NCBI GenBank assembly: GCA_036630325.1
Contig: CP142731.1
Span: 744,001 to 808,000 of the forward strand
Direction of reading: 5' to 3'
From: Vairimorpha necatrix
Lineage: Eukaryota
DNA length: 64,000 nucleotides
Part shown: positions 5,401-64,000 of the stretch, piece after piece
Position numbering within the stretch: the stretch's first letter is position 1
Layout of the letters: each line of letters opens with the position of its first letter
The notes under the pieces: model-generated
Database searches by the model: none
Told to the model about the DNA's origin: nothing
What the model saw: only the letters and a program-made list of their open reading frames with translations
Position numbers and translations under genes: made by a program

Positions 5401-5542
5401 CATTCTTCTCAAAATCATAATCAGACAATACTAGTCCATAAACAATCCTCTTAAAATCTTCAAATAACCTTCTGGCCTCTTGACCACAGCCAACACCTGT
5501 TAACTCACGATTCGGTATCGCCCCCATGTATTTATTTATCAT
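2500..5542 (-). pseudogene. Fragmented gag-pol of element 1
   Basis: Decayed Zn knuckle CYNGSRMGHKSQMC; RT FSVIDLKEAFY; RNase H LRTDASNIGMGAVL and VVADALSR; integrase HGHGG..CEEC; many frameshifts. Confidence 0.88.
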
Positions 5543-6517
5543 AATTGGGGTTCAGAAATATAAGAATATATAACAGTACATACCTTTCAAAGGACCTCAA
5601 AAAGTATATTTATAAGCAAGAAACAGTACTTGTTTACAACGAACTTATCGGCGTGAGCAAATAATAAGCAATGCTGTGATTTAAGGATAAGATATATATG
5701 TTAAGCTTGAACGATATATTATTACATAAATACCTTGTTTTACAATTATACTATTTACTTTAGCCAAAAATATTATTTAAATCATAAATGTTTATTTAAA
5801 TTCTGTTTTTTTGCCATGATCCAAACTTACAATATCATCTATATGTATGTAGTAGTACCTTCAAAATTTTCTACAAAACAAATTAATGCCTAAAATAAAA
5901 CATTTTTTCTTTGTGTAATGAACAGTATATACAAATATAAAATTTTATAGGAATTAAACATATTAGCAATAGAGTAGACCAAAGGAATATTTAACTGTAA
6001 GCTCTTCAGTATTATTACTCAAAATTTACAGATTGTGCAGTAGGCATGACGAAATAAGAAAATGTTATCTACATATAGGTAAAATCCGATGGGATGGAAA
6101 ACTTAATATAGATGTATATTGCAAAATACAGATAAATATAGTCATTTTCTTATTATTCTGTCAGGTGTTGCAAATTTAGCATGCCATTGCATTTATAAAA
6201 TGTTTGATAGACAGAGCTTGTGACTCTCTATAAAAACATTAAACTAATATTTATTTTTGTTCGCGCAAAAAGGTCATCAAACCTACATTATTTAAGAGAG
6301 AAAAGAAACTACTATTTATTTATATTGTAATATTTTCACGATTATAGTTTATACTTATTTTTTTATCTAAGAACAGTTATTATGAACTATAAAAAATACA
6401 AAAGATTTCTTAATTTCTATGGATTATGTGTAATAAAAATGTTTTATAGGCTATGTAAAAATTTAATAATAATTGCAATTTTTAATAATAATATTTAACA
6501 ATATGTAATTAATTTTT

Positions 6518-33601: not shown

Positions 33602-34434
33602 TAGAAATTCATCATGGGAATATGACGATTCAATCCCCTGTAATATACAATGAATACCACCTTGGTATGAAAAATTTTATAATCGAGGGGTCTAAGTAAA
33701 AACGCACTTTAAAAAAAATATACCAATTTGCCAAAAATATAAGGCTCTTCGTTAAATATAGAAAATTATTAGAAATTTTTGCACAGCTTCGCCGTGATTT
33801 TAAGTATAAAAATCTAGTTTAAAATACAAACATAAATTTATAAAAACTCAGTGTCATATTTTAGGAGTTGTCGATTATATGTATTCTACTATACATTACA
33901 TAATTCTATTTGGTCACTAAAAAATTTACTTATATAAATAAAAATCTTTTGATTCTTAGTCTCATGTGATGCGATTCATTGTTTTTGACATTCGCCGCGA
34001 GATTTTTGAAGGCTGTCTTGAAACAATAACTTAAAGATTAAGTAAATTGATTGTTTTTTTTTGAATGAAATGTACGAAGTCCTGATGCTTAAAATTTGTT
34101 GATTATGTTTTTTCCTGGATACTATTTGACAATTAAAAGTTTTATATTGATTTTTGACTTCGCTTTATTAAATTTTTTCTCTTACCATTTAATTGTTTTC
34201 AACAAATAGATCTCAAAGTACATGTATTTTTATTGAAGATATGTTCTTTATTAATTCTAACTACTAGTTTTTTATTTATTTATCTGACAAAAAAATACTT
34301 CTAATTTTTTACATAAAATTCGAATGATTTATGACAGCTAGTAACAAAGTAGTGTTTTATAAATCTGTCTTCTTTTTATATTAGAATTAAAATCATTCTT
34401 CTCTTTATATATAAAAATTTTTCACTACCCTTTT

Positions 34435-35001
34435 ATGATATTTTCTATGTTCTTTTTATTTACTTTTCAATCTACTTCTTTGACATCCACTTCCGATCTT
34501 AACGTACCATCGTACATTGATGATTACTTGGAATCGGCCATCCACGACAGAATTCTTCTATCAAATTACGATCATATACTCAGACTAACCTATCACAATT
34601 TAAAATGGCTATCTCATACTAACAAAATAGGCGTAAGATATTATTTAATGTCATTCGACGAGATAAGTAAAAATTTTATACAATACGACGATCTTAAACA
34701 GATATTTTTTCAAAGTAATGTCACGTCAGAATATAAAAAGTTTTATATGGATGTTTACCAAAGGCTGCAGTTGGGGAACGTCAGTTTAGCGTCTTTGGAT
34801 GAATTTACAAATAACTTTAAGCAGCCACTGATTTTTCCACTGAAAAATATACCTGCTAGTGATATTTTGTATGAAGACGTAAATAGAAAAATATTGGAGG
34901 ATATCAAAAGAATAAATGATCTTATAGAGATATACTGTGGGTTTATATATAAAGTAAGATCTATATATTTCTATTTTAAAACAGGCATTACAAAGCAATA
35001 A
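34435..35001 (+). CDS. 188-aa putative secreted protein; paralog of 42263..42829
   Basis: CCCTTTT-ATG; hydrophobic N-terminus; high identity to paralog. Confidence 0.85.
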   Translation: MIFSMFFLFTFQSTSLTSTSDLNVPSYIDDYLESAIHDRILLSNYDHILRLTYHNLKWLSHTNKIGVRYYLMSFDEISKNFIQYDDLKQIFFQSNVTSEYKKFYMDVYQRLQLGNVSLASLDEFTNNFKQPLIFPLKNIPASDILYEDVNRKILEDIKRINDLIEIYCGFIYKVRSIYFYFKTGITKQ

Positions 35002-36551
35002 AATACATTATTTAATCATTTAACTTGCAATCAATATATTAAAACAATTTTTTTATTAATATAACTTATAGGTGATATAAAAATGAGTAAAAAATATTTT
35101 ATTTAGATTTTGTTGTATACTGAAACACTATTTTATTGTAAAAATTCTTAAATACTTTTCTATATATCAAATATCAATAGTTGTTCATCAAGATATTTGC
35201 TTTTCAACAACACAGTATTTGATGTTTACAAGCTTAAATAGTCAGAGAAGCTGAATTGTAAAAATTTGATTGTGTATTTATTCTATATCTTTGCTTTAAA
35301 TGCTATACTATAGTTTATAGGAATGTAAATTTGTAAAGAACGAAGAAATCTTATATTTGAAAGCGTATATTACAGAAATATGCGATTTAGCTACCTTAAT
35401 AATGTTTCCCCAAATGTATCACAGATTAGAAATTAAATCATAACAAAACTAATAAATTTGAAAGTAAATCTATATAAATGATATTTTGAAGAATGTAGAA
35501 CTGTTAGTTACCACTCTATTTTAAAACATGATTAGTTTTTAATATATAACGAATATTCGGAAAGAACGTGTCATGTTCATATAAGTTCCCTTTGTTTTAT
35601 TACAATATTAAATAAGTCTGTGTGTTAAATTCTAATTAGGGGTTTGTTTATATCTATCGATTTATGTTTTTTAATTATATTTTACCTCTCATTGGTAAAA
35701 ATCATTTCAATTAAATTTCGAATCAATAATACAGTTCAACGACATTAACTGAAAAATAAAAATAAAACATAATGAGCTGTAAGAAAATTTAAAACTTTTT
35801 CCTAAATTAATTTATTCCATTTCAATTTAATTTTGATTTTACAATTGTATTTAATTAGTATTTATAACTTAATATAAATATATGTGACGGAACTCGTAAA
35901 TATTAAATAACAAAACATTATTTTGTATGATATATGAATCGAATTACAAATTGTACTGCCATTTTATATTTATGAGTCTTTTCCGACTACGTCACATATT
36001 TAAAAGATAGTATATGTATCTATTCTGTGCGAAAAAAAAAAGTTATCATGTACTATTTGTACCATCGTTAATGGCACAAGTATTTAAAATCTCGGAGTTA
36101 ACTTTAATTGTTTGATATGTAAACTTAAAATGACCAAAATCAATTCTCATTATAATTTTAAAAATTAAATTTACGAGTTTATGTATAAAATTTGGAGTGG
36201 AAGCTGGTCTATTATGAAGCGCATATAACTGAATTTAATAGGTGCAATACTTAAAGCCAATGATTTTGTTGTACTTGAAGATTAATAAACACATGTTTTA
36301 TTGAAGATCTGTTTTTTTTACATTAAGCATCAAGATACGTAAATAACGAGATATGTAAATGATATATAACGATGAGTATAGAAAATCTTATAAAAAAAAA
36401 TTAGTATAAGAGATCTGAATAAGTAAAAAAAAATTTTATACAAGCCCCGTCTAATATATTTAAACACAGCTAAGGTCGTGGATTATGATCAAAAGGCTTG
36501 AATATAAACGCACTCCAAAAAGCAATATTAATTCAAAAATATAAGAATCTT

Positions 36552-37214: not shown

Positions 37215-37341
37215 AGAATCTTTTGCGATGTAGAAATTATTAGAAATTTTGATACAGCTTCACTTTGATATTAAAATTAAATAAAAAGTGAAAAACTAAT
37301 TTTATATACAAACATTATTGGAATGAAAACATGGTTTATTT

Positions 37342-40300
37342 TGTGGTATTATAAATACCACAAATTATTTCTTTTTATTTTATCAATTTTCCCTTTTTGG
37401 AAAATAGACCATTCGACCGGTCTATTCCAAAAATCAAATATTTATTTCCTTTTTGCCCTGACCCCCACACAAAATTATGAGACAAGACAAAGATCAATAC
37501 CCTTGGAATCCACGACCAAGGAAGGGCCTCAGAGCCAGGGACCAGTATCCCATTACGGATGCCCAACGAGGCTTTAATCAATTAAATAAAACATATAATT
37601 TAATAGAACTATATTTGTCCAGAGGTAGCTCCTCTGGATTGCGTCATTTTGAATTCAAAGACGAATTAAATAGTAAGTACGAAGATAGAAATTCCATGTT
37701 CGAATACAGAGAATTCGACATGAAGATCACTGGAACAGATGTGATAAGTAAAGAAAAAATAAAAATTATTAAAAAACCATCAGAAATTTCAATGGTGGAG
37801 CTACAGAAATTTGAGAATCTAGCAGAGGCCAATGGCTGGAATGATGAGCAGATGGGAAGAATATATGGGACCATGTTAGTTGGCGATCACTTTTTAAACG
37901 CCAAGTATAGTAAATCATACTTAAAATTAAGAGCGGCATTACTAGAAATTGCCTATCCTAGAAACATGAGATTTAGAATTGCACAGGAGCTCGAAGATGT
38001 TAGGCAGTGCAACCACATATATCTGGAAGATTATGTGAAGAATATTTCCCAAAAGTTAGATGCCTACAGTTTCTCAAATAATTTAACTAAGCAAGAAGCT
38101 GAGAGAAAATTTTCAGAAGTATTTTTTAGAGGACTAGGTAAACAAACTGAGATGGAACTTTGCAAAAATGAGGTTAATACGCGGACCACTTCAGACGTTA
38201 TTGCTTATCTAAAGACTTTAGAATCAACTATTATTTCTCAAATAGGAAGACGAAACGAGAATGGATATGTACCTAATGAAACAAGCAAAATTTGCAATTC
38301 AAGAAATCCTTATTGTAGTGTGCACAAGAGCTTTTCGCACAATACAAGAGATTGTAGACTTCGGAACAATCTCAAAGATACTAAAGATAAAACGATACAT
38401 TTTGAAGAAAAAACAAAAAGAAATAATATGGTTATTCAGCTAGGAACAACAAATAATCAGAAAGAAGTAAAAATAGTAGGAATATTAGACTCAAATAATT
38501 ACTTATTGTTAATCGATACAGGTTCACACTTGAATTTTGTGAGTGAACAAGTGGTCTACATGAATGATCATATAGCTGAACCGTGTCAGCCCTTCACTAC
38601 TATATTTGGAAATGGAGATGAAAGAATGATTAACACTAAAGCTAGAATACGAATAAGGTTGTCTCCAATTATTATCATGGATATTGAATTCTATATTATT
38701 AAAAATTGCCCAGTCGATTTACTACTAGGATCTGAATGGCTTAGGAAGAATAAAGCTACAATTGATTTTGCTAACCAATCACTTGTTATTAACAATGAAG
38801 AAATTCCCTTTATGGACGCGATACCAAACACGGATGAGATGTTAAATGAACGATTAAACAATTTACTTTATGTGTCTCCTTCGAAGGAAATTTATATTTC
38901 ACACCTTGAAAATTATAAGAAACTAAATGATAAATTTTACTCTATGAAAATGGATGAAGCTCGATTTACGGTTATAAAGAAGTTGAATATCACGCGACAT
39001 AAATTCTACAATATAGCTTTCAAATATTATGAAAGAGCAAGAAAGGAGGTTAAAAGATTACTTGATGAAGATATTATAGAGAAGTCTAGAGCAACTTTCG
39101 CAAGCCCAGGATATTTTATCGAAAAGAAAACTGGTGAATTAAGACTGGTCATAAATTTTAAAGAGATAAATGATCACATCGAAGATGACATCTTTTCAAT
39201 ACCAAAAATAGATGACTGTATACTAAGGATGGGAAGAAATAAGTACTTTTCTCAAATAGATTTAAAGAACGGATTCAACCAGATTAAAATCCAGCAAGAA
39301 AGCAGAGACTTGACATCATTTATGATTATGGGAGCCCAATACCGATACAAACGTATACCCTTTGGCATTAAACCGGGTCCAAAAATTTTCCAAAGATACA
39401 TCACTGAAATATTACACGAAGTGGATAACTGCTTCGTGTACATAGATGATATTGTATTATTCTCAGAAACCAAGGAAGATCACAACAAATTAATAGTAAA
39501 TGTTTTGAACAAACTCAAAGAGAAAAATGTAAAAATAAACTTTGAAAAAAGTAACTTTATGAAAGATGAAATCACGGTACTAGGAAATACAATAAATGCT
39601 GATGGTGTGTTTCCAGCGAACAAATTGATTCCTAAAGAAATATTAGAGAGAAGACTAAAAACTAAAAGAGATGTCCAAAAACTATTAGGGACGATTGGAT
39701 GGTATAGAAAATTCCTACCAAATTTGTCTACAAAATTACTCCCATTGACAAACATGCTGCAGCAAGGAGCAAAAATAGAATCGACTCAGCATGTTAAGAA
39801 CATTATTAAGGACATAAGCGAATTTATTAAAAATAGAGCGAGATTAATCTGCCCAGATTACACAAAGTCATTCACCTTAGAATGTGATGCTTCTGATATG
39901 GGGATAGGTAGTGTACTTTACCAAGAGGATGGTCCAATTGGATATTTTAGTAAAAAATTTGGAAAGGTTGAACTAAATTATAGTATTGTAGAAAAGGAAT
40001 ATCTTGGAATCCTTTTATCACTCATACACTTTAAAGGCATCTTGCAAGGAAATTTTGTAGAAGTCAGAACAGACAGTAAAAATTGCTTAAACAACGTGAA
40101 ACTAGAAACCTCAAGAATGTGTCGTTGGAAGTTAATCATTAATGAATTTAACCATAAATTAATACACATAGAAGGTAAAGAAAATGTAATTGCAGATAGT
40201 TTATCGAGATGCTTCACAATTATCAAAAACAATGAAGATGGATACATAAAAATGGTCAAAGATGCAATGATAAAGGACAAAAATCAAAGGATAAAAATGA

Positions 40301-41557
40301 ATAAAGACGGAAAAATTTTTATGAAACCAAACAAAGTAAAACACTGGTTATATAAAATACATCATGAACAAGGCCATAGAGGAATAACAACAATGTATAA
40401 TAATCTAAAGAATTTTTTTTATGTTCCACATCTATTCCATAGGATCAAACAAATAGTAAATGATTGTCGAAAATGCAAAACTTACAAAGTAACTTATGTC
40501 AAAAGAGAGGTAGGAGCCCATATGTCAGCTGAAAACAATCTTGAAAGAATTAGCTCGGACATATATGGTCCATTTAATTTAGAGAAATTTAAGAACGCGG
40601 GTAAGCATAATAAAGGATTTATTATTACAGTAACAGACATAAAGACACGATACACGAAACTATATTTAGCATATAAAATAAGAGGAGAAGAGATTATAAG
40701 CGCAATCAGCAATTGGACTGAATTAACAAAATCTAAACCTACAATACTAATATCAGATAACGGAAAGCAGTATACAAGCAAACAAGTTGAACAATATTTA
40801 AACGAAGTGGACATAAAGCACTTACGCGTTCCAACATATACCCCAAGTTCAAATGGTATATCAGAGTCAGTAAACCGCACTATAACATTCATACTGTCTA
40901 TAATGAAAGGCGAAAATATAATCACAGCCATTGATATGTGCGAATGGGTGATCAATAATAACTATAATAGATCAATAGGATGTTCCCCCAATGCTGCGTT
41001 AAATGGGAAAGAATACTATGATCCACTAGAAAGAGCAATACAAATGCGTAATATGAAAAAAACATTAACTACTCCCAAATTCAGGCTAGGCGACGAAGTA
41101 TATGTAAGGAATTTGACAGCTACGAAGTTAGACCGGAAGTACTTAAGAAAGAGAAAGGTAACGCAATTAGGATCCAAAGGAAAATGGGTAAAGGTTAATG
41201 GAATCTCTGAGTGGATACATGTCAAGAACATTAAACTTTAGAGGGGGTAGAATGTGGTATTATAAATACCACAAATTATTTCTTTTTATTTTATCAATTT
41301 TCCCTTTTTGGAAAATAGACCATTCGACCGGTCTATTCCAAAAATCAAATATTTATTTCCTTTTTGCCCTGACCCCCACACAAAATTATGAGACAAGACA
41401 AAGATCAATACCCTTGGAATCCACGACCAAGGAAGGGCCTCAGAGCCAGGGACCAGTATCCCATTACGGATGCCCAACGAGGCTTTAATCAATTAAATAA
41501 AACATATAATTTAATAGAACTATATTTGTCCAGAGGTAGCTCCTCTGGATTGCGTCA
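37342..41557 (+). mobile_element. Intact Ty3/gypsy LTR retrotransposon (element 2)
   Basis: Identical 305-bp LTRs 37342-37646 and 41253-41557; TSD TATTT; PPT GAGGGGGTAGAA. Confidence 0.97.
37477..41241 (+). CDS. Gag-Pol polyprotein (Gag with CHHC knuckle, PR, RT, RNase H, IN)
   Basis: CSVHKSFSHNTRDC; LIDTGS; YIDD; ECDASD; HHCC; ISDNG. Confidence 0.96.
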   Translation: MRQDKDQYPWNPRPRKGLRARDQYPITDAQRGFNQLNKTYNLIELYLSRGSSSGLRHFEFKDELNSKYEDRNSMFEYREFDMKITGTDVISKEKIKIIKKPSEISMVELQKFENLAEANGWNDEQMGRIYGTMLVGDHFLNAKYSKSYLKLRAALLEIAYPRNMRFRIAQELEDVRQCNHIYLEDYVKNISQKLDAYSFSNNLTKQEAERKFSEVFFRGLGKQTEMELCKNEVNTRTTSDVIAYLKTLESTIISQIGRRNENGYVPNETSKICNSRNPYCSVHKSFSHNTRDCRLRNNLKDTKDKTIHFEEKTKRNNMVIQLGTTNNQKEVKIVGILDSNNYLLLIDTGSHLNFVSEQVVYMNDHIAEPCQPFTTIFGNGDERMINTKARIRIRLSPIIIMDIEFYIIKNCPVDLLLGSEWLRKNKATIDFANQSLVINNEEIPFMDAIPNTDEMLNERLNNLLYVSPSKEIYISHLENYKKLNDKFYSMKMDEARFTVIKKLNITRHKFYNIAFKYYERARKEVKRLLDEDIIEKSRATFASPGYFIEKKTGELRLVINFKEINDHIEDDIFSIPKIDDCILRMGRNKYFSQIDLKNGFNQIKIQQESRDLTSFMIMGAQYRYKRIPFGIKPGPKIFQRYITEILHEVDNCFVYIDDIVLFSETKEDHNKLIVNVLNKLKEKNVKINFEKSNFMKDEITVLGNTINADGVFPANKLIPKEILERRLKTKRDVQKLLGTIGWYRKFLPNLSTKLLPLTNMLQQGAKIESTQHVKNIIKDISEFIKNRARLICPDYTKSFTLECDASDMGIGSVLYQEDGPIGYFSKKFGKVELNYSIVEKEYLGILLSLIHFKGILQGNFVEVRTDSKNCLNNVKLETSRMCRWKLIINEFNHKLIHIEGKENVIADSLSRCFTIIKNNEDGYIKMVKDAMIKDKNQRIKMNKDGKIFMKPNKVKHWLYKIHHEQGHRGITTMYNNLKNFFYVPHLFHRIKQIVNDCRKCKTYKVTYVKREVGAHMSAENNLERISSDIYGPFNLEKFKNAGKHNKGFIITVTDIKTRYTKLYLAYKIRGEEIISAISNWTELTKSKPTILISDNGKQYTSKQVEQYLNEVDIKHLRVPTYTPSSNGISESVNRTITFILSIMKGENIITAIDMCEWVINNNYNRSIGCSPNAALNGKEYYDPLERAIQMRNMKKTLTTPKFRLGDEVYVRNLTATKLDRKYLRKRKVTQLGSKGKWVKVNGISEWIHVKNIKL

Positions 41558-42262
41558 TATTTATTAGTAAATATTTAAAAAACGACGTGTCTTTTGTTTA
41601 AAGATTGACATCGCCGGATTTGACATGTGTTCCATTTTCTGCAGATATAAATCTATTTTTACTCAGTGTCATATTTTAGGAGACGCCTATCTTATATGTA
41701 TTCGCACAAAATATTACATAATCTCATTTCTCTCAATAAAAAGACATTGCTTTCAAAAACCAATATATTTAGTGGTTCTTAATTTTATGTAATCGTTCCT
41801 TTATTTTTTAGACTTATCATGAGATTTGTGCTAGTTTTAAATTTTTATTTATTAATCAAGTAAATTGATTAAATTTTTTTATAAGTACACAAATTTTAAG
41901 TATTATGATACTTTCTTGTTTGTTATTGGATAATATTTGACAATTAAAAGTTTTTATATTAGTTTATGACTCCATTTTATTAAATTTTTTCTCTGACCAT
42001 TCTATTATTTTCAACAAAGATATCGTATTTCTACAAGCAATTATAAAAAATGTGGTTCTGTTGCTGCTATATTCTTTGTTAATTCTAGTTATTAGTGTTT
42101 TAATTTATTTAACCGACAAATAAAGTACATCTTATTTTCATATAAGTCCAATGATTTATGACAGCCAGTTATAAAAAGATGTTTTAATTGAGTTTTTTAT
42201 CTTTTTAAATATGAATAGAATATTTATTTTGTCGGTATTTACTAAATATTTTCTACCCTTTT

Positions 42263-42829
42263 ATGATAATTTTTAAATTCTTTTTATCTACTTTCCAATC
42301 TACTTCTTTGTCATCCACTTTTGATCTTGATGCACCATCATACATAGAAGACTACTTAAAATCAGGCATCCACGATAGACATCTTCTTGTAAGTTATGAC
42401 CATATACTCAGAATAACCTATTACCATCTAAAATGGCTATCTTATGTCAATAAAATAGACATAAGATATTATTTAATGTCATACGACGAAATAAGTAAAA
42501 ATTTTATACAATATAAGGATCTCAAACAGATATTTTTTCAAAGTAATGTCACGTCAGAATACAAAAAGTTTTTTATGGATGTTTACCAAAGGCTGCAGTT
42601 GAGGAACGTGTGTTTGGCGTATCTAGAGGGATTTATCAACAAGTTCAAGAACGTGGAGATTCGTGCACGTAAAGATAACAATGCCAACGATATATCGAAT
42701 AACAACGGAAATAAAAAAATATGTGAAGAAATTAAAAGAATTAATGATCTTTTAGAGATATACTGTAGGTTTATATACAAAGTAAGATCTATATATTTCT
42801 ATTTTAAAGAGGATATTACAAAGCAATAA
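42263..42829 (+). CDS. 188-aa putative secreted protein; paralog of 34435..35001
   Basis: CCCTTTT-ATG; same length as paralog, high identity. Confidence 0.85.
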   Translation: MIIFKFFLSTFQSTSLSSTFDLDAPSYIEDYLKSGIHDRHLLVSYDHILRITYYHLKWLSYVNKIDIRYYLMSYDEISKNFIQYKDLKQIFFQSNVTSEYKKFFMDVYQRLQLRNVCLAYLEGFINKFKNVEIRARKDNNANDISNNNGNKKICEEIKRINDLLEIYCRFIYKVRSIYFYFKEDITKQ

Positions 42830-43786
42830 AAAAGGTTATTTAATTATTTAAATCGCATTTAATATATCGGAACCAATTTATTTTTATAAACTAGAAAAAA
42901 TTAGATTCATATGAAAATGTGTAAAAAAACATTTTGTTTAAATTTTATTGTATATTAAAACATATTAATCTAAATTTTTAAGTACTTTCACGCCGCAAGA
43001 AATTTATACTTGTTCATCGTGATATTTGCTTTTTAACAACACAGTATTTGATGTTTACAAGCTAATATAATCAGTGAAGATACACTTGTAATGATTTTAT
43101 CGTATATATATTCTATATCTTTGCTTCAGATGCTATACTATAACTTACAGGACTATCAATTTGTAAACAGACATAATTAATTTTATATTTAATGGCGTAT
43201 ATAGCAGAACCGTGTGATTTAGCTATCTTAATGTTGTTTCTTAGTATGTATAATAAATTTAAAATTAATTTATAACAAAACTAATTAATTAGAAAGCAAA
43301 TCTGTCTAAAAAGTAATTTGAAAAATGTAGAAATGTTCGGTAACACAGTAATTTTACAAAAGCTGTTTAGTTTCCTACAGTTGTAAAGAAGATTCCAAAA
43401 ACATGTATCATGTCAATATAAAATCCCTTTGTTTTAGATTATACTGTTTGTATTTTTAAAAAACCAAAATTGATTTTTTTGTTTATTTATGTTGTTCAAT
43501 TATACTTTTACCCCCGGGGATAAGATAATTTTCCAATTTAATTTTTAATTAAAAATACAGTTCAACGACATTAACTGAAAAATAAATTTAACACAATGGG
43601 CTGTAAAGATATTTTATATATTTTTTTAGTAATTATAAAATATTATTTTAAATCTTAATTTTACAATTTAATTAAATTTTTATCCTGCAACTTAGAACAA
43701 TTATATAAAATTTACTTGTCAATTTATAATCCAAGAAGATTCTATCAAATATTTTCTAATGATATTTGTTTTTATTCCCCCTTAAA

Positions 43787-44854: not shown

Positions 44855-47800
44855 TGTAGGAAGTGCTACACGTGTCAAATATATAGTGTACTTGTTTTGA
44901 AATATTTGACACCGTGTTTCTTTAAATAATTTAAAATAAATAAACCCATGTTTTTATCCCAACAATTTGGCGACAACGTCAGGAACTTTCTCATTTTCAG
45001 AAATGAAGAGAAAGATGATCCACAGCAGTTCTTGGAGGACTTGCAGGATGTGGGGAGGCTGATGGAGTACAGTGAGAGTAAACTTGTACTCCTTTTCAGA
45101 ATATCGTTAAAGGATGAGGCGAGGGATTGGCTAATAGCGCAGCCAATTGGTCTTTCACTTGAAAGACTGAAAGCCTTGTTCCAAGAAAGATTTGTGGGTC
45201 CCATGGCGATGAAAGTGAGTCTAGATAAACTTTCCGCCCTTCAATATCATGGTGGATCTCTCGCCAACTATCTAGATAAGATGGCGGGATTGGCGCGTAA
45301 AGGGAATGTTCCAGAAGGCATATTGATTGCCTTTGTACTGAAAGGAATTCCAGATTATTTAGCAAACGCGGTTTTAATAAACAAGAAGAACTCATTATCT
45401 TGGGAGTGCATATATAAGGCCTTAAGGAATGTTACCGCAATGGATGAGGTACGTTATACAGAATTTTTGCATGGAGGTTATATGAATGTCAAAGCGACTA
45501 GCTTCAGGGATCACGATAAAAAGAATTTGACTCCCGAGAGGACTTTTAAAATGAAGTGTTTTATTTGCGGAAAGAAAGACCATATTGTGTCAAAGTGTAA
45601 ATTCAATAGCTTCCGTAGAAATAAAAGAGAAGCTAAGAAAGGTCAAGAGAAAGAAGAAGGAGAAACCAAGAAGACAGATTCAAAGGAATTTATTTACAAT
45701 TACTCCGTTACCAAATTAAAGGATAATAGAACTACGCTAAAGAAAGCGTCATTAAATGATTCAGAAGTCAATTTTAAAGTGCTCATCGATACAGGAGCCG
45801 ATATAAATTTAATTAGGCCAGAGCTTTTGCCAAAGAAAACCGTTGTTAATCGTTCGAAACAACAGCTTAGGGCAGCCAATGGATCGAAAATAAAGATCAT
45901 TGGGGAAACAGTAATCAATATTAAAATTGAAGGGATGATTTTCGAAGATAGATTCATTATTACTAGGGATATCACAATTCCCTGCATAATAGGACAAGGG
46001 TTACTTGATAAGTATAAGATAAATTTAAAATTTGGAAACAACAAAATGGAAATCGAATCTGGATATTTGGCAAGGGGGAAAGCCATAGGGTATCATAAAA
46101 TTATTACAAAGGATGATAACCCGATACTATCTCAGTTATACAAGTTGGGTGGAGCAAAAGAGAATATTGCATCCCAAATAGTGAAAGAGCATCTAAAACT
46201 TGGAATAGTTAGACCAAGTGTAAGCGCATGGCGAAGTCCGATAATTATAGTCCCAAAAAAGAATGGAGATCATAGGTTATGCGTGGATTATAGAAGATTA
46301 AATGATGCGACCATCAGAGACGCTTATCCAATGCCCCGCGTAGAAGAGTTTATCAATGCTTTAGAGGGCGCAACGTATTTTACTAAATTAGACGCTGAAT
46401 CGGGCTATCACCAAATAGATATGGCGCCGTGTGATATTGAGAAGACAGCTTTTGCCTGTAGAGAAGGCTTATTTGAATTTATGAAAATGCCATTTGGACT
46501 TGTTAATGGCCCAGCTACATTTCAGCGGGTGATGAATAACATATTAAGGGAATTTTTATTTAAGTTTGTTGTAGTATACATGGATGATATACTCATATAT
46601 AGTAAAACTAGAGAAGATCATAAGAGAGATGTTCAAATGGTATTAGAAAAGCTCAAGTCGGTAGGGCTTAAACTTAATAAGGATAAATGCGAATTTTTTA
46701 AGACTGAATTAAAAATTTTAGGTCATGTAATATCAAAAGAGGGAATAGGTGTAGACGAAGAAAGAGTTAGGAGCATTCAACAGTTACCCATTCCTAAAAG
46801 TAAGAAGAAATTACAATCTTTGTTGGGACTGTATAATTATTGTGCTAAATTCATAAAAAACAGTCACAGGGTGGTTAGCCCACTATTTGACATAATCAGG
46901 CTCAAGGATGAGGAAGCAGATTGTTTTTGGAAAAATGTGGAACAAAATGCTAAATATCGTAAGGATATTGAAGAGGTAAAACAGGCCATGAAGAGAACGG
47001 CCTTGTTGACTATCCCAAATTTAAGGGATAAGTTCATTTTGACTACAGATGCATCGAACGAGGGATGTGGTGCTACATTGGCACAAATAATTGGAGGGGA
47101 AGAAAAGATTGTTTCTTATTACAGCTACTTACACTCGAAGACAGAAAAGAATTACTCCGCGACGGAACAAGAACTATTGGCGGTTATAAAATCCATCCAA
47201 CACTTCAGAGAATATTTATTATTGGGCAAGTTCACATTAAAAACTGATCATCAAGCTCTGAAATATCTGTTCAAGTCTGGAAATGTTAAAGCCAGGTTGG
47301 CTAGATGGTCGTTGATTTTACAAGAATATGACTTTGATATTGTGTATATAACAGGACCATCGAATCATACAGATCACCTAAGCAGAGAATTTAAAAAGGA
47401 GGAAGAGAAGGTTTATCGAATAAATTTAGTACAAAAGAAAATTATTAAAAAAGAGAGAACATTGGCATTAATGAGGTTTTATCATGATTTATTAGGTCAT
47501 GGATCAAAACAGAACATGAAGTATAATATCGGACAAAAATACTCATGGAAGCATATGAATAGAGACATAGAAGACTATATTGAAAATTGTGAAGTTTGTC
47601 AAAAGGAAAAACCACAGAAAAAATTTAAGGATATTATACCGGTGGTGGCTAATAAATTAGGAGAGATCTGGGAATTGGACATGGTAGGCCCTCTGAAGGA
47701 GAGTGAGCAAGGATATAAGTATTTATTGACAATGATTGACCATTTCTCAAAAATTGCAGAAGTTGTGCCGGTTTATACAAAGGATATGAATACGGTTGTT

Positions 47801-48558
47801 CATTTGATTGATAAACATATAGTTAGGAAACATGGTGTACCGAAAGTCATTCTAACTGATAATGGCAAAGAGTTCAAAAATAAAATTTGTGATGAATATG
47901 CAAAGGTTAAGAACTTTATCTGGAAATATGGTTCCCCCTATAAACCTACGACCACGGGGCTTGTAGAGAGATTTAATAGAACAATAGGTTCTAAGTTAAG
48001 GAAAATTACGGAATTTGGGCAATTCGATTGGGCAAGATGCGTTCCTAAGTTGATCAAGGCCTATATGCAGTCTTACCATAGGGCTATAGGCTGCGCTCCA
48101 GTAGAACTTATCACAGGAATGACACTTAATAATATGGACCTTCAGGAAGGGATTAAGACCTTAAAAGAAAAGGAAGAGTATCAGAGACAGGCCATTAAAA
48201 ATTTAGAAGCCTACAGACGTGAATATAACACAAGTGGGAAAGAGAATGCTGATAATAAGGACACCATAAAGGTAGGAGATAGAGTCTGGTACTATTTAAT
48301 TCTCCCTATAAGAGGAAAACTAGAACCTAAATGGGAAGAAAAAGGAGTAGTTGTAGAACAAAAATTTCATTCATTTAAAGTTTTATTGGACAGTGGGAAA
48401 ATAGTTACGGCGAGTCGAAATCATGTTAAACTTTTAAAGGAGGGGTAGTGTAGGAAGTGCTACACGTGTCAAATATATAGTGTACTTGTTTTGATATATT
48501 TGACACCGTGTTTCTTTAAATAATTTAAAATAAATAAACCCATGTTTTTATCCCAACA
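44855..48558 (+). mobile_element. Intact, compact Ty3/gypsy LTR retrotransposon (element 3), 3704 bp
   Basis: 110-bp LTRs 44855-44964 and 48449-48558 (1 mismatch); TSD ATTTA; PBS TGGCGACAACGTCAGG at 44968 (tRNA-Ser-like, inferred); PPT AAAGGAGGGG. Confidence 0.97.
44948..48448 (+). CDS. Gag-Pol polyprotein (CCHC knuckle, PR, RT, RNase H, IN)
   Basis: CFICGKKDHIVSKC; LIDTGA; YMDD; TTDASN; LTDNGKEF; VERFNRT. Confidence 0.97.
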   Translation: MFLSQQFGDNVRNFLIFRNEEKDDPQQFLEDLQDVGRLMEYSESKLVLLFRISLKDEARDWLIAQPIGLSLERLKALFQERFVGPMAMKVSLDKLSALQYHGGSLANYLDKMAGLARKGNVPEGILIAFVLKGIPDYLANAVLINKKNSLSWECIYKALRNVTAMDEVRYTEFLHGGYMNVKATSFRDHDKKNLTPERTFKMKCFICGKKDHIVSKCKFNSFRRNKREAKKGQEKEEGETKKTDSKEFIYNYSVTKLKDNRTTLKKASLNDSEVNFKVLIDTGADINLIRPELLPKKTVVNRSKQQLRAANGSKIKIIGETVINIKIEGMIFEDRFIITRDITIPCIIGQGLLDKYKINLKFGNNKMEIESGYLARGKAIGYHKIITKDDNPILSQLYKLGGAKENIASQIVKEHLKLGIVRPSVSAWRSPIIIVPKKNGDHRLCVDYRRLNDATIRDAYPMPRVEEFINALEGATYFTKLDAESGYHQIDMAPCDIEKTAFACREGLFEFMKMPFGLVNGPATFQRVMNNILREFLFKFVVVYMDDILIYSKTREDHKRDVQMVLEKLKSVGLKLNKDKCEFFKTELKILGHVISKEGIGVDEERVRSIQQLPIPKSKKKLQSLLGLYNYCAKFIKNSHRVVSPLFDIIRLKDEEADCFWKNVEQNAKYRKDIEEVKQAMKRTALLTIPNLRDKFILTTDASNEGCGATLAQIIGGEEKIVSYYSYLHSKTEKNYSATEQELLAVIKSIQHFREYLLLGKFTLKTDHQALKYLFKSGNVKARLARWSLILQEYDFDIVYITGPSNHTDHLSREFKKEEEKVYRINLVQKKIIKKERTLALMRFYHDLLGHGSKQNMKYNIGQKYSWKHMNRDIEDYIENCEVCQKEKPQKKFKDIIPVVANKLGEIWELDMVGPLKESEQGYKYLLTMIDHFSKIAEVVPVYTKDMNTVVHLIDKHIVRKHGVPKVILTDNGKEFKNKICDEYAKVKNFIWKYGSPYKPTTTGLVERFNRTIGSKLRKITEFGQFDWARCVPKLIKAYMQSYHRAIGCAPVELITGMTLNNMDLQEGIKTLKEKEEYQRQAIKNLEAYRREYNTSGKENADNKDTIKVGDRVWYYLILPIRGKLEPKWEEKGVVVEQKFHSFKVLLDSGKIVTASRNHVKLLKEG

Positions 48559-51048: not shown

Positions 51049-51843
51049 ATGTACAAAATATCTTCATTGTTATTCATATTAAAGAATATATCAGCTAATA
51101 CTTGTAGTGTTAGTGAAGAAGACAGAAATAGGTCGTTTTTGTTTGGTAGATCGACTACACAAAAACTACAAGATCAAACATTTAGAGATGATACTTGTCC
51201 TACTGGAGATAGGATTAACGAAGAATTATTGTTAAACAGTACTAAGGAGAATGAATTGGGAGGAATGAAATCGAAGTTGTGCGGTGGTACTGAACCTTCA
51301 CAAGAAGAAAGTGTGAAAAAGGCAAGCCTGATGGGATTTGGAGAATCAAAGAAGTCTGAACTTTTAGGATGTGGCAATGCAGCGCCCGCTTCGGAAGAAG
51401 AGATCAAAAGGGCCAATTTGTGTGGTATTAGTTTTTCAAAAAGCGAAGATGATAAAGAGAAAGCTAAACTTTTAGGAAGTGGAAATACGGCAGCAGCCTC
51501 GGAAGAAGAGAATGTTAGTTCTAAACTTTTGGGAAGCGGAAATACGGCAGCAGCCTCGGAAGAAGAGAATGTTAGTTCTAAACTTTTGGGTAGTGGAAAT
51601 ACTGCTGCAGCCTCGGAAGAAGAGAATGTTAGTTCTAAACTTTTGGGTAGTGGAAATACTGCTGCAGCCTCGGAAGAAGAAATCAAAACTTCCAATTTAT
51701 TCGGAAGTGGCACTACTGCACCTGTATCGGAAGGTGAGAAGACCAAGTCCAGCTTTTGGGGAAGTTTTGTAAGTTCATCAAGTCTATTTGGAAATGACGA
51801 TAAGTCATCAGAAGAAAAAGGTGACTTAAAACCAGGTGAATAA
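51049..51843 (+). CDS. Secreted Ser/Glu/Gly-rich repeat protein
   Basis: Signal-like N-terminus; 19-aa repeats SKLLGSGNTAAASEEENVS. Confidence 0.85.
   Translation: MYKISSLLFILKNISANTCSVSEEDRNRSFLFGRSTTQKLQDQTFRDDTCPTGDRINEELLLNSTKENELGGMKSKLCGGTEPSQEESVKKASLMGFGESKKSELLGCGNAAPASEEEIKRANLCGISFSKSEDDKEKAKLLGSGNTAAASEEENVSSKLLGSGNTAAASEEENVSSKLLGSGNTAAASEEENVSSKLLGSGNTAAASEEEIKTSNLFGSGTTAPVSEGEKTKSSFWGSFVSSSSLFGNDDKSSEEKGDLKPGE
51464..51680 (+). repeat. About 4 x 57-bp coding tandem repeat
   Basis: Repeated CTAAACTTTTGGG..GCAGCCTCGGAAGAAGA. Confidence 0.9.
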
Positions 51844-62687: not shown

Positions 62688-64000
62688 TGTGGTATAATAT
62701 CTCATACCACATGTTTATGGTGACCAATAGACGATGAAACGCTAATGTGCTTTGATACACGTCAAGCATCTCTAATTGTTAGTGGACAGTTCTGAAACAC
62801 TAATTTCTAATTGGTTACACACAAATATAAATAACGAAATTCATCACTTAAAAAGAATGAGGATGCCTAAGAACAACAACAGCCGCACTCCAGCTCAGGC
62901 CCATGACGCCAATAACAATAAACACTATTCAAATACATTTACACCTACCTTGGGAATTCACGGTACACATAACCGTAGCATTATTGAATGCTTTCTTGCC
63001 ACTGGCACAATTCCAGGTAAATACGCCAATTTGAGCTCAAATGGCAATAAAGGTACAAAGTCATTTACAACTGGAGATAAACATCATTACGCGGAATTTA
63101 AAAGAACTGTTGAAGGTACAGACGTACCAATCCAAGACTATATACTTAAGATATTTAATATCAAATCAGATCTCACTACAGCAGGTCTCAAAGAGTTTGA
63201 AACTCTTTCTGAATATAACAAGTGGAATGACACACAAAGCGGTCATATTTACCATAGTCTAATCTATGATTCTACTTATAAGGATAAACTTACTAGGAAC
63301 AGTTACAAGGCACTGAGAAAAGAACTTCTAGACATACTGTATCCAAAGACCCAACACAGGATTCTCTCGCAAAAAATTGACAATATCAGGCAAACTGATC
63401 ATTTTTCCATTAACGAGTATATGGAAACAATTTCTAAAGGATTAGAAGGCTACATTCATGTCAACGATCTTTCAAGAAAGGAAGTGGATAGAAAACAAGA
63501 AGAAATATTTTTCAAAGGTTTGGGAAGATATACCACTATCAAGATTGCCGATCAAAGACTTAAAACGGCTCCATTTCAAGAAATTATTCAATTTTTAATA
63601 GAACTGGAAGAAAGCATATTATCCCAGTCCACAGAGACCAAACAAGGCTTAATAACCCAGACAACGGGTGCGAACAAGACTAAATACGCCTTTACTAATA
63701 AGAAGTGGTGTAAATACCATCACTCGAAGTTTCACAACACTATAGATTGTTCCCTTCATAAAACCTCACAATCAGAAGATGTCAAAAGCATGATTATCAC
63801 TGAACTTAAAGTCGACAATCATGAAGGGATAAAAATTCAAGGAGAATTAAATGGAACTAACCTACAGTTATTTGTTGACACGGGTGCATCTTGCAATTAT
63901 ATTCACGAAAAACTGTTAAAGTCCTTAAAGCTGAACACAATTGAAACTAAACCTCTAACTATGATATTTGGATGTGGTACTAAAGAAACCACTAGTCGAG
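62688..64000 (+). mobile_element. Ty3/gypsy LTR retrotransposon (element 4), 5' part, related to element 2; predicted 5' LTR 62688-63028
   Basis: Starts TGTGGTAT..ATACCACA like element 2; homologous Gag; LTR end inferred by analogy only. Confidence 0.85.
62857..64000 (+). CDS. Gag-Pol N-terminal part, open to the window edge
   Basis: Own translation: CKYHHSKFHNTIDC knuckle and LFVDTGAS protease; aligns with element 2 Gag (EGTDV/TGTDV, KWND/GWND, FFKGLG/FFRGLG). Confidence 0.9.
   Translation, partial: MRMPKNNNSRTPAQAHDANNNKHYSNTFTPTLGIHGTHNRSIIECFLATGTIPGKYANLSSNGNKGTKSFTTGDKHHYAEFKRTVEGTDVPIQDYILKIFNIKSDLTTAGLKEFETLSEYNKWNDTQSGHIYHSLIYDSTYKDKLTRNSYKALRKELLDILYPKTQHRILSQKIDNIRQTDHFSINEYMETISKGLEGYIHVNDLSRKEVDRKQEEIFFKGLGRYTTIKIADQRLKTAPFQEIIQFLIELEESILSQSTETKQGLITQTTGANKTKYAFTNKKWCKYHHSKFHNTIDCSLHKTSQSEDVKSMIITELKVDNHEGIKIQGELNGTNLQLFVDTGASCNYIHEKLLKSLKLNTIETKPLTMIFGCGTKETTSR

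What the first reader, a model, noticed from the sequence alone, without database searches (positions are those of the whole stretch)
37642..37663. Palindrome in place of a tRNA primer-binding site, conserved in two diverged LTR elements: candidate non-canonical priming/dimerisation system
Seen: intact element 2 has identical LTRs but no TGG-type PBS after the 5' LTR (ends 37646). It has a perfect palindrome TTTGAATTCAAA (37648-37659), extended by CGTC..GACG over the LTR end. Diverged element 4 has ATTTGAGCTCAAAT (63029-63042), extended by GCC..GGC, at the homologous Gag position. Both centres lie 7 nt past the terminal CA (inferred for element 4), and the core changes symmetrically (GAATTC vs GAGCTC). 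A U5 hairpin precedes each (TCCAGAGG/CCTCTGGA at 37618-37638). Elements 1 and 3 have ordinary TGG PBSs. Known: Ty3/gypsy elements use tRNA 3' ends or, in the Tf1 group, self-prime with the transcript 5' end; I find no complement of this site in the LTR. Inference: this lineage may prime minus-strand synthesis from a self-complementary RNA (fold-back or partner genome), or use the site for dimer initiation.
Basis: partly seen in the sequence, partly recalled or inferred. Interest (0 to 1): 0.8.

Follow-up and report, generated by a model that had tools for sequence, protein, structure and literature searches.

The report
Palindrome replaces tRNA primer site
A family of small jumping genes in microsporidian-type parasites has, exactly where such elements normally bind a host tRNA to start copying themselves, a short self-complementary sequence that is kept by matched mutations, which points to a start or pairing mechanism that does not use a host tRNA.

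Summary
Element 2 (37342-41557) is an intact Ty3/gypsy element with identical 305-bp LTRs and a 5-bp target duplication. It has no TGG primer-binding site. A perfect 12-nt palindrome starts 2 nt after the LTR's CA. Element 4 has a 14-nt palindrome in the same register, differing at the two central bases in a complementary way. The two are read in different frames, so the DNA/RNA is conserved, not the peptide.

No DNA of relatives could be fetched, so I tested relatives through their proteins. 62 of 78 aligned Gag leaders fit a palindrome of 12 nt or more at that column, against 3.7% of background positions. The middle residue is N, S, I or T in 58 of 58 rows. Two outer base pairs covary (0 of 5000 shuffles each).

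This argues against a fixed host tRNA partner, Tf1-type self-priming (no complement in the LTR) and a simple hairpin (the central bases also pair). My best reading (0.55) is an RNA-RNA duplex between two genomic RNAs at the primer-site position, probably supplying the minus-strand primer. Priming itself is not shown, and host tRNAs could not be tested.

A similar palindrome in fungal GalEa copia elements was published in 2017, with its mechanism unsolved. I rate this a new variant of a known kind.

The parts
37342..37646 (+). 5' LTR of element 2 (TG..CA, 305 bp). It holds the ATG of the polyprotein at 37477.
   Evidence: Identical to 41253-41557.
37337..37341 (.). Target-site duplication TATTT. 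The second copy is at 41558-41562.
   Evidence: Flanks printed.
37617..37639 (+). U5 hairpin, 9 bp with a 5-nt loop, 2 nt before the extended palindrome.
   Evidence: Fold: MFE -19.8 kcal/mol for 37610-37672, z = -4.1, and 0 of 200 shuffles fold as well.
37648..37659 (+). Perfect 12-nt palindrome at the primer-binding-site position of element 2. It is 14 nt (37647-37660) if the terminal U.G pair is counted. It is read as F58-E59-F60-K61.
   Evidence: It is the only complement of 9 nt or more to itself within the element.
37642..37663 (+). Extended self-complementary stretch: CGTC, a 2-nt bulge, the palindrome, then GACG. It spans the LTR end.
   Evidence: The T-A pair of element 2 corresponds to a C-G pair in element 4.
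37477..41241 (+). Single Gag-PR-RT-RNaseH-IN open reading frame (1254 aa). It starts 170 nt before the LTR end and reads through the palindrome.
   Evidence: Pfam.
41240..41252 (+). Polypurine tract before the 3' LTR.
41253..41557 (+). 3' LTR of element 2.
62688..63028 (+). Inferred 5' LTR of element 4 (341 bp). The end is inferred, not seen in a second copy.
   Evidence: Same start motif as element 2, conserved CGYCA at the end, and the ATG at 62857 lies 172 nt before the end.
63029..63042 (+). Perfect 14-nt palindrome of element 4. Together with base 63028 it is read as N58-L59-S60-S61-N62. It is extended by GCC (63025-27) and GGC (63043-45) with a 1-nt bulge.
62857..64000 (+). Gag-PR part of the element 4 polyprotein. 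It runs off the window.
   Evidence: 29% identity to element 2 Gag, E = 1e-47.
44968..44980 (+). For contrast: the ordinary TGG-type primer-binding site of element 3, 3 nt after its 110-bp LTR (44855-44964). It also lies inside the ORF, which starts at 44948.
5509..5526 (-). For contrast: the ordinary TGG-type primer-binding site of element 1, directly after its LTR's CA.

Best explanation
The palindrome is the functional equivalent of the primer-binding site in a microsporidian-type clade of single-ORF Ty3/gypsy elements. It acts as nucleic acid, not as peptide. Two genomic RNAs pair through it into a symmetric duplex of 12-14 bp, about 20 bp with the flanking GC pairs, that abuts U5.

Inferred, not shown: one strand is cut at the 3' edge of the palindrome, by the element's RNase H as in Tf1 or by another nuclease. 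The new 3' OH of the partner RNA then primes minus-strand synthesis across U5 and R of the other genome. The same duplex would also serve as the dimer linkage.

Shown: the position, the absence of a tRNA-type or Tf1-type site, and conservation of complementarity by compensatory change. Inferred: RNA rather than DNA as the acting form, the cut, and the priming.
For: Position:
- In element 2, whose LTR ends are certain, the palindrome starts 2 nt after the CA. That is where elements 1 and 3 of the same window have TGG sites.
- By the logic of LTR formation (established knowledge), the primer must pair within a few nt of U5.

No other primer site:
- There is no TGG for about 85 nt.
- The best duplex between the site and the LTR is no better than in shuffled LTRs. 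89 of 100 shuffles (element 2) and 56 of 100 (element 4) do as well.
- Exact complements in the LTR are at most 7 nt, and at most 6 nt where they overlap the palindrome.
- Inside the whole element, the site's only complement of 9 nt or more is itself.

Nucleotide-level conservation:
- Elements 2 and 4 are 29% identical in Gag, yet share 10 of the 12 palindrome bases in the same register to the CA. They are read in different frames (F-E-F-K against N-L-S-S-N).
- The two differences are complementary (AT against GC), as is one pair of the flanking helix.

Relatives, from proteins only:
- 352 Gag relatives were found.
- 86 of 175 proteins placed on the profile reach the site.
- 62 of 78 fit a palindrome of 12 nt or more in element 4's frame, against 995 of 26992 background centres.
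- In 58 rows with [L/M]-x-S, x is N 24, S 15, I 13 and T 6, and never K, R or M. These are the only four residues that a codon A-b-c with complementary b and c can give.
- L at codon 2 goes with a codon 5 that can start with A (39 to 0). M goes with a codon 5 that starts with T (13 to 1). Fisher p = 1.7e-11.
- Dealing codon 5 or codon 1 out anew never reaches the observed fit (0 of 5000 each). With distinct pentapeptides only, 1 of 5000 does.
- On a tree there are 10 L/M changes and 21 middle-residue changes. Of the independent pairs, 4 go the same way, 0 the other way and 1 shows no difference.

Duplex rather than hairpin:
- The central bases stay complementary.
- The dimer energies are -12.4 and -17.3 kcal/mol for the 14-mers, against -0.3 and -0.4 for the hairpins.
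Against: - Priming is not shown by any data here. No RNA run holds the element.
- DNA was seen for only two diverged elements. The test on relatives rests on best-case codon choice, which is permissive for L and S. Real codons may differ.
- 16 of 78 aligned relatives do not fit, and 7 more rows have gaps.
- With kinship controlled, only 4 informative pairs remain (sign test p = 0.125).
- The host tRNA set and tRNA fragments could not be tested, because no genome is held.
- Element 4's LTR end is inferred, and a TGG lies 14 nt after it.
- Element 2 also carries E-L-N-S-K, in non-palindromic codons, six codons after its palindrome. This could mean that the L-x-S peptide itself matters.
- If the template genome were cut 3' of its own primer site, its minus strand would lack that site. 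The model therefore needs only one of the two RNAs to be cut, which is an added assumption.
Confidence: 0.55

Rival explanations
1. The palindrome is only a dimer-linkage or packaging signal. It holds two genomic RNAs together, as the palindromes of retroviral leaders and of Ty1 are thought to do. Minus-strand synthesis is primed in some other, unidentified way.
For: Self-complementarity with central pairing and strong dimer energies. Palindromic sequences are proposed to mediate Ty1 RNA dimers (PMC4974528, passages).
Against: The site sits exactly at the primer-site position, and no other candidate site exists next to U5. A dimer signal has no need to abut the LTR's CA in the same register in two diverged elements.
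Confidence: 0.2
2. Fold-back priming in cis. The palindrome and its GC extension form a hairpin in one RNA, which is cut and extended on itself.
For: Hairpins are predicted in both elements: -4.8 kcal/mol (z = -1.3) and -7.4 kcal/mol (z = -2.9). A strong U5 hairpin lies beside the site in element 2, as the U5 inverted repeat does in Tf1 (recalled).
Against: A hairpin would leave the central four bases unpaired. Yet the middle codon is always one that allows a complementary centre (58 of 58, no K, R or M). The 14-mer hairpins alone are worth only -0.3 and -0.4 kcal/mol.
Confidence: 0.08
3. The site binds a host RNA as primer: an internal part of a tRNA, a tRNA half or fragment, or another small RNA.
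For: Half-tRNA primers and internal tRNA sites are known (PMC6317226 and PMC5445492, passages). The host tRNA set could not be tested.
Against: A fixed host partner would hold the sequence constant. Instead at least three base pairs change in a compensatory way across the family. tRNA-Asn, the only tRNA in the window, has no complement of 6 nt or more. There was no Rfam match.
Confidence: 0.07
4. A DNA-level site. The palindrome is bound by a dimeric protein, either a host transcription factor or an element protein, just downstream of the LTR promoter.
For: The three bases on each side next to the centre are nearly invariant across the family. Regulatory sites downstream of the LTR are known in other elements (recalled).
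Against: Base identity changes while symmetry is kept at the centre and at two outer pairs, which is typical of pairing and not of protein recognition. The near-invariant bases are also fixed by the L/M and S codons. The element would still lack a primer site.
Confidence: 0.07
5. Chance together with a conserved peptide motif. L/M-x-S is kept for Gag function, and the palindromes of elements 2 and 4 are accidents of an AT-rich genome.
For: There are 50 perfect 12-nt palindromes in the window. Element 2 keeps L-N-S-K in non-palindromic codons a few residues downstream. Best-case codon fitting is permissive.
Against: Element 2 keeps the palindrome in another frame. Element 4's five codons are the one palindromic choice among 864 synonymous ones (my count from the standard code). 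Codon 1 / codon 5 and codon 2 / codon 5 covary by first, second and third codon letters, not by residue chemistry.
Confidence: 0.03

Closest known systems
[quoted passage not shown] 2017, PMC5445492; I read section 10 in full and passages of the discussion)
   Same: There is no tRNA-type site. A conserved palindrome lies directly after the 5' LTR, and its variants differ at symmetric positions. There is no Tf1-type complement. The authors propose that it takes the place of the primer-binding site and say that no known model fits.
   Different: GalEa is copia-type; this element is gypsy-type (order PR-RT-RH-IN). The GalEa palindrome is 10 nt and includes the last A of the LTR; here it is 12-14 nt and starts after the CA. 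GalEa has a second inverse-complementary box 12-41 bp downstream; none is found here. GalEa's site is described as non-coding; here it is translated. Their Additional file 4, which lists the sites, could not be seen.
Tf1 / Tf2 / Tj1 self-priming (PMC4600332 and PMC6317226, passages)
   Same: No host tRNA is used. An RNA-RNA duplex of element RNA forms at the primer-site position, and a cut makes the primer. There is a U5 hairpin next to the site.
   Different: In Tf1 the partner is the first 11 nt or so of the same transcript. No such complement exists in these LTRs. No chromodomain was found.
Palindromic dimer-linkage sequences of retroviral leaders and the Ty1 PAL sequences (PMC4974528, passages; the retroviral cases are recalled)
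   Same: A short self-complementary RNA near the 5' end that can join two genomes.
   Different: Those elements have a separate tRNA primer site, and the retroviral palindromes sit in hairpin loops. Here the palindrome occupies the primer-site position and no other site exists.
Half-tRNA and internal-tRNA primer sites (copia-type lineages; PMC6317226 and PMC5445492, passages)
   Same: There is no TGG at the start of the site.
   Different: Those sites match a fixed host tRNA. This one covaries with itself.
Microsporidia-specific single-ORF Ty3/gypsy groups (Parisot et al. 2014, PMC4202319, passages)
   Same: One gag-pol polyprotein. The closest Pol relatives (40-47% identity) carry microsporidian names in their sources.
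   Different: That paper's main text does not mention primer-binding sites or tRNA (0 occurrences).

Membership tests
Canonical tRNA-primed LTR retrotransposon | A site of 8-18 nt that starts with TGG, complementary to a tRNA 3' end, 0-5 nt after the 5' LTR. | tested here: not met
   Element 2 has no TGG for about 85 nt after 37646. Element 4 has a TGG only 14 nt after the inferred CA. Elements 1 and 3 do meet the feature.
Tf1/sushi-type self-priming elements | The site is complementary to about 11 nt at the start of the transcript, within the LTR. | tested here: not met
   The longest exact complement in the LTR is 6-7 nt. The best duplex is no better than with shuffled LTRs (89 of 100 and 56 of 100 shuffles do as well).
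Tf1/sushi-type self-priming elements | A chromodomain at the integrase C-terminus (chromovirus). | tested here: not met
   There is no chromodomain among the Pfam hits of the 1254-aa polyprotein.
Half-tRNA-primed elements | The site is complementary to an internal stretch of a host tRNA that ends at a cleavage point. | not testable with these tools
   No host genome is held. tRNA-Asn alone was tested and has no complement of 6 nt or more. The covariation argues against a fixed partner.
GalEa Conserved Hairpin Site | A conserved palindrome directly after the 5' LTR, in place of a tRNA site. | tested here: met
   It is conserved in relatives by protein inference.
GalEa Conserved Hairpin Site | A second inverse-complementary box (CHSeq2) 12-41 bp downstream. 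| tested here: not met
   The best second copy matches 9 of 12 (element 2; 103 of 1000 shuffles reach it) and 7 of 12 (element 4; 758 of 1000).
GalEa Conserved Hairpin Site | Membership of the GalEa clade of Ty1/copia. | tested here: not met
   The domain order PR-RT-RNaseH-IN is that of Ty3/gypsy.
Ty3/gypsy LTR retrotransposon | LTRs with TG..CA ends, a 5-bp TSD, a PPT, and a polyprotein ordered Gag-PR-RT-RH-IN. | tested here: met
Retroviral-type dimer initiation site | A palindrome exposed in the loop of a leader hairpin, in addition to a primer-binding site. | tested here: not met
   The palindrome forms the stem or duplex itself, and no separate primer site exists.

The most novel reading that the evidence does not exclude
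Reciprocal priming between partner genomes would be a third way to start reverse transcription in LTR elements, after host tRNA and Tf1-type cis self-priming. In this model two packaged RNAs pair through a palindromic primer-binding site. One is cut at the edge of the duplex, and its 5' fragment primes cDNA synthesis on the other. Dimerisation and priming would then be one and the same structure, and the element would need no host primer. The same solution would have arisen twice, in fungal GalEa copia elements and in microsporidian gypsy elements.
Probability: 0.35. Interest if true: 0.8.

Novelty: new variant of a known kind. Interest (0 to 1): 0.62.

Why it matters
How reverse transcription starts is a defining trait of retroelement lineages. 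Only tRNA priming, half-tRNA priming and Tf1-type self-priming are understood. A palindrome in place of the primer site was reported once, for fungal GalEa copia elements in 2017, with no mechanism.

This finding shows a second, unrelated lineage with the same solution. It also adds what the first report lacked. The site is conserved across reading frames. Compensatory changes occur at the centre and at outer pairs, which favours an intermolecular duplex. The family is large (352 Gag relatives), which makes the question testable by comparison and by simple RNA biochemistry.

Independence from host tRNAs could also help explain how such very compact elements persist in reduced parasite genomes. 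That last point is my speculation.

Tried and rejected
- DNA of relatives: the search for related loci found nothing of this lineage.
  - It found nothing in viral contigs with the polyprotein or with the Gag core.
  - It found nothing in metagenome contigs in two scans.
  - The genome-contig scan gave machine errors three times and was then capped. The short contigs filed under bacterial MAGs (P0003, P0014, P0018, P0019) could therefore not be fetched.
  - A broad Pol alignment in viral contigs gave 7 distant loci at 23-33% identity. The best, L001, is an env-bearing insect-type element and not this lineage.
  - A degenerate LTR-end-plus-palindrome pattern gave 102 matches in viral contigs, and none encodes a retroelement.
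- Gag residues 1-330 against the 5.8-billion-protein word index: no hit at near length. The exhaustive profile search later found 352 relatives.
- Sequencing runs: no RNA holder is listed. Contigs of two runs hold the family. X1 record 1 (37498-37758, 2 other letters) and X2 record 10 (37618-38445, 0 other letters) bridge the LTR/palindrome junction. They are near-identical copies, so they say nothing about conservation. 290 differences were not shown, so diverged copies could not be read at the site.
- Longest possible palindrome anywhere in each leader: not discriminating, because best-case codon choice for L, S and R allows long palindromes at many places. I replaced it with the fixed-column test.
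- In one search the arm lengths were mislabelled by one pair. One search is the corrected run.
- Rfam at a permissive threshold on both 5' regions: only chance-level matches, E = 0.67 or above, and none at the site.
- Other copies of the element 2 or element 4 5' ends in the window: none.
- Literature:
  - Searches for microsporidian elements with primer-site descriptions found none.
  - Searches for palindromic primer sites found only the GalEa paper, plus a bivalve TRIM paper that cites it.
  - The 2006 description of Nosema bombycis LTR elements (recalled) is not in the searchable library and was not seen.
Full report
**1. What is there**

Element 2 spans 37342-41557. Its two LTRs (37342-37646 and 41253-41557) are 305 bp long, identical and end TG..CA. 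They are flanked by the 5-bp duplication TATTT, and a polypurine tract lies at 41240-41252. One open reading frame of 1254 aa (37477-41241) carries protease, reverse transcriptase, RNase H and integrase in the gypsy order. [quoted passage not shown]

The same layout holds for the other compact elements of the window. Element 3 has 110-bp LTRs (44855-44964 and 48449-48558) and the TSD ATTTA. Its ORF starts at 44948, and an ordinary TGG site lies at 44968-44980, 3 nt after the CA. Element 1, on the minus strand, has a TGG site directly after its LTR's CA. A primer-binding site inside the coding region is therefore normal here.

The host genes (Sec1, trehalose phosphatase, Hop2, a sugar transporter), the 22-36% G+C and the closest Pol relatives fit a microsporidian genome. 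That is an inference.

**2.

After the CA of element 2 (37645-46) comes one T and then the perfect palindrome TTTGAATTCAAA (37648-37659). No TGG follows for about 85 nt. CGTC (37642-45) and GACG (37660-63) extend the complementarity across the LTR end, with a 2-nt bulge.

Element 4 has ATTTGAGCTCAAAT at 63029-63042, flanked by GCC and GGC with a 1-nt bulge. Both centres lie 7 nt past the CA.

Element 4's LTR end is inferred, because its 3' LTR lies outside the window. Three points speak for it:
- Its LTR starts at 62688 with the same 8-nt inverted repeat as element 2.
- The ATG lies 172 nt before the inferred end, against 170 nt in element 2.
- The five bases before the palindrome are conserved as CGYCA.

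One caveat is a TGG at 63042-44, 14 nt after the inferred CA. Element 2 has nothing like it at the matching place.

**3. Is it more than chance?**

The window holds 50 perfect 12-nt palindromes, so a single one means little. What is not chance is the pair.
- The two Gag proteins are 29% identical.
- In the DNA alignment, the block from the LTR end through the palindrome is the best-conserved stretch of the region.
- 10 of the 12 palindrome bases are the same.
- The two differences are complementary to each other, and one pair of the flanking helix changes from T-A to C-G.
- Most telling, the palindrome is read in different frames. In element 2 it makes exactly four codons, F58-E59-F60-K61. In element 4 it is N58-L59-S60-S61-N62.

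The nucleic acid is conserved relative to the LTR end, not the peptide.

**4. Relatives**

I could not obtain DNA of relatives. Four scans of viral and metagenome contigs found nothing of this lineage, and the genome-contig scan failed and was then capped. I therefore tested the prediction through proteins, which is possible because the site is translated.

A profile of the two Gag sequences finds 352 relatives at E of 0.001 or better among 1.84 billion representatives. The closest Pol relatives carry microsporidian names in their sources. Of the 265 proteins held, 175 match the profile locally and 86 should reach the site.

In a MAFFT alignment of these 86 leaders, I read the five columns of element 4's N-L-S-S-N:
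- Element 2 was set aside, because it uses the other frame and its DNA is known.
- 7 rows have gaps in these columns.
- 62 of the remaining 78 can be coded by a palindrome of 12 nt or more in element 4's frame. 16 cannot.
- The same test at all other positions of the same proteins succeeds at 995 of 26992 centres, or 3.7%.

Five of the 16 misses are distant plant-type proteins. The other misses have no L/M-x-S nearby, apart from P0157, whose N-M-T-S-E has the motif but not the outer pairing. They may be truncated, misaligned, in another frame, or truly lack the site.

**5. Covariation inferred from residues**

58 of 85 rows have [L/M]-x-S.
- **Centre.** x is N (24), S (15), I (13) or T (6) and nothing else. 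These four residues make up 32% of the neighbouring sequence, and K makes up 11%. They are the only four residues that a codon A-b-c with complementary b and c can give. K, R and M, which also have codons starting with A, never occur.
- **Codon 2 against codon 5.** When codon 2 is L, codon 5 is a residue whose codon can start with A (39 rows against 0). When codon 2 is M, codon 5 starts with T (13 against 1). The one exception is a protein whose first residue is that M. Fisher p = 1.7e-11, not corrected for kinship.
- **Shuffles.** With codon 5 dealt out anew among the rows, the 10-nt fit averages 37.7 of 55 rows (maximum 50), against 54 observed (0 of 5000). With codon 1 dealt out anew, the 12-nt fit averages 40.9 (maximum 49), against 54 (0 of 5000). 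With distinct pentapeptides only, 1 of 5000 reaches the observed value.
- **Tree.** On a FastTree of Gag with the site's own residues left out, L/M changes 10 times, the codon-5 class 9 times and the middle residue 21 times. Of the independent pairs on well-supported branches, 4 go the same way, none the other way and one does not differ. That is too few for significance (sign test p = 0.125).

Further variants fit the same logic. One row reads L-H-A, where the middle codon would start with C and the next with G. A group reads N-L-S-L-K.

All of this rests on best-case codons. Only elements 2 and 4 are confirmed as DNA.

**6. What it is not**

- **Not a tRNA 3'-end site:** there is no TGG.
- **Not Tf1-type self-priming:** the LTRs hold no exact complement longer than 6-7 nt, and the best duplex is matched by 89 of 100 (element 2) and 56 of 100 (element 4) shuffled LTRs. 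Within element 2, the only complement of 9 nt or more to the site is the site itself.
- **Very unlikely to bind a fixed host RNA:** the sequence changes in a compensatory way. I could test only tRNA-Asn, the window's one tRNA, and it has no complement of 6 nt or more.
- **Not a known Rfam family**.
- **Not the same as the GalEa Conserved Hairpin Site in one respect:** there is no second inverse-complementary box downstream.

**7. How it most likely works**

The primer must pair within a few nt of U5, because U5 ends where cDNA synthesis starts (established model of LTR replication). The only pairing partner that the data allow is another copy of the palindrome.

A hairpin in one RNA would leave the centre unpaired, yet the centre stays complementary. 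The 14-mer hairpins are also worth only -0.3 and -0.4 kcal/mol, against -12.4 and -17.3 for the dimers. With the GC extensions the dimers reach -18.8 and -28.3 kcal/mol.

I therefore favour a duplex between two genomic RNAs. By analogy with Tf1, where an RNA-RNA duplex at the primer site is cut to make the primer (PMC4600332, passages), a cut at the 3' edge of the palindrome in one partner would give a 3' OH paired next to the other's U5. The strong U5 hairpin at 37617-37639 resembles the U5 hairpin that Tf1 needs (recalled).

The cut and the priming are inference. The rivals are a pure dimer signal, cis fold-back priming, a host RNA primer, a DNA site for a dimeric protein, and chance together with a peptide motif. 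They are weighed in their own section of this report.

**8. What is known**

Donnart et al. 2017 (PMC5445492; I read section 10 and passages of the discussion) reported that fungal GalEa copia elements lack a tRNA site. Right after the 5' LTR these elements carry a conserved 9-bp box. It is CTGATCAGT or CTAATTAGT in 85% of families. It becomes palindromic when the last A of the LTR is included, and its variants lie mainly at positions 3 and 6. A second complementary box follows. The authors state that no known model fits. A bivalve TRIM paper cites this (PMC6934838, passages).

My searches found no report of such a site in gypsy-type or microsporidian elements. The main text of the survey of microsporidian elements does not mention primer sites (PMC4202319).

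**9. Verdict**

This is a real, selected, nucleotide-level element at the primer-site position of a large clade. I rate it a new variant of a known but unexplained kind. The new evidence is frame independence and central covariation, and it narrows the mechanism to an intermolecular duplex.

**10. Left unexplained**

Element 2 carries E-L-N-S-K in non-palindromic codons six codons after its palindrome.

Noticed in passing
44855-48558; 5509-5560 (minus strand); 37477; 62857: All four compact gypsy-type elements of the window start their single gag-pol ORF inside the 5' LTR and translate through U5 and the primer-site position. Element 3 has LTRs of only 110 bp.
   Followed up: partly
37663-37677: Element 2 encodes E-L-N-S-K, the peptide that relatives encode with the palindrome. 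It lies six codons after its own palindrome and uses non-palindromic codons. It may be a relic of a small duplication, or a sign that the peptide matters too.
   Followed up: no
proteins P0142, P0172, P0186, P0191, P0227: Several relatives' predicted proteins begin with M-[N/S/I/T]-S. In the M-type variants, the ATG inside the palindrome may therefore serve, or be called, as the Gag start codon.
   Followed up: no
proteins P0003, P0014, P0018, P0019: Polyproteins of this microsporidian-type family are filed in public records under bacterial MAGs (Lactobacillaceae, Aeromonas, Bacilli), on contigs of 3-4 kb. This is probably eukaryotic parasite DNA binned into bacterial genomes.
   Followed up: no
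34374-35522 and 42202-43354: Direct repeats 76-79% identical and about 7.8 kb apart flank element 2 on both sides. They could be an older duplicated segment or older element remains.
   Followed up: no
776-1034 and 2258-2502: Arrays of a 22-bp tandem repeat in opposite orientation, 8-9 copies each. One lies next to a copy of element 1's LTR end (769-814). The other lies about 1.5 kb away, downstream of the element's integrase-like stretch.
   Followed up: no
51445-51729: Four or more copies of a 57-bp tandem repeat inside the ORF 51049-51843.
   Followed up: no
6518-8770 and 12515-14830 (minus strand): Two paralogous ORFs of 750 and 771 aa, about 71% identical in DNA over the compared stretch, with no Pfam family.
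   Followed up: no
37394-37433: A 40-nt imperfect inverted repeat (81%) in the U3 part of element 2's LTR. In addition, both element 2 and element 4 LTRs begin with the 8-nt inverted repeat TGTGGTAT..ATACCACA.
   Followed up: no
37469-37471 and the LTR in runs X1, X2: Contigs of two public runs show LTR variants of the family. These have a different stretch just before a conserved ATG, and LTR depth is far higher than internal depth, which suggests many solo LTRs or copies.
   Followed up: no
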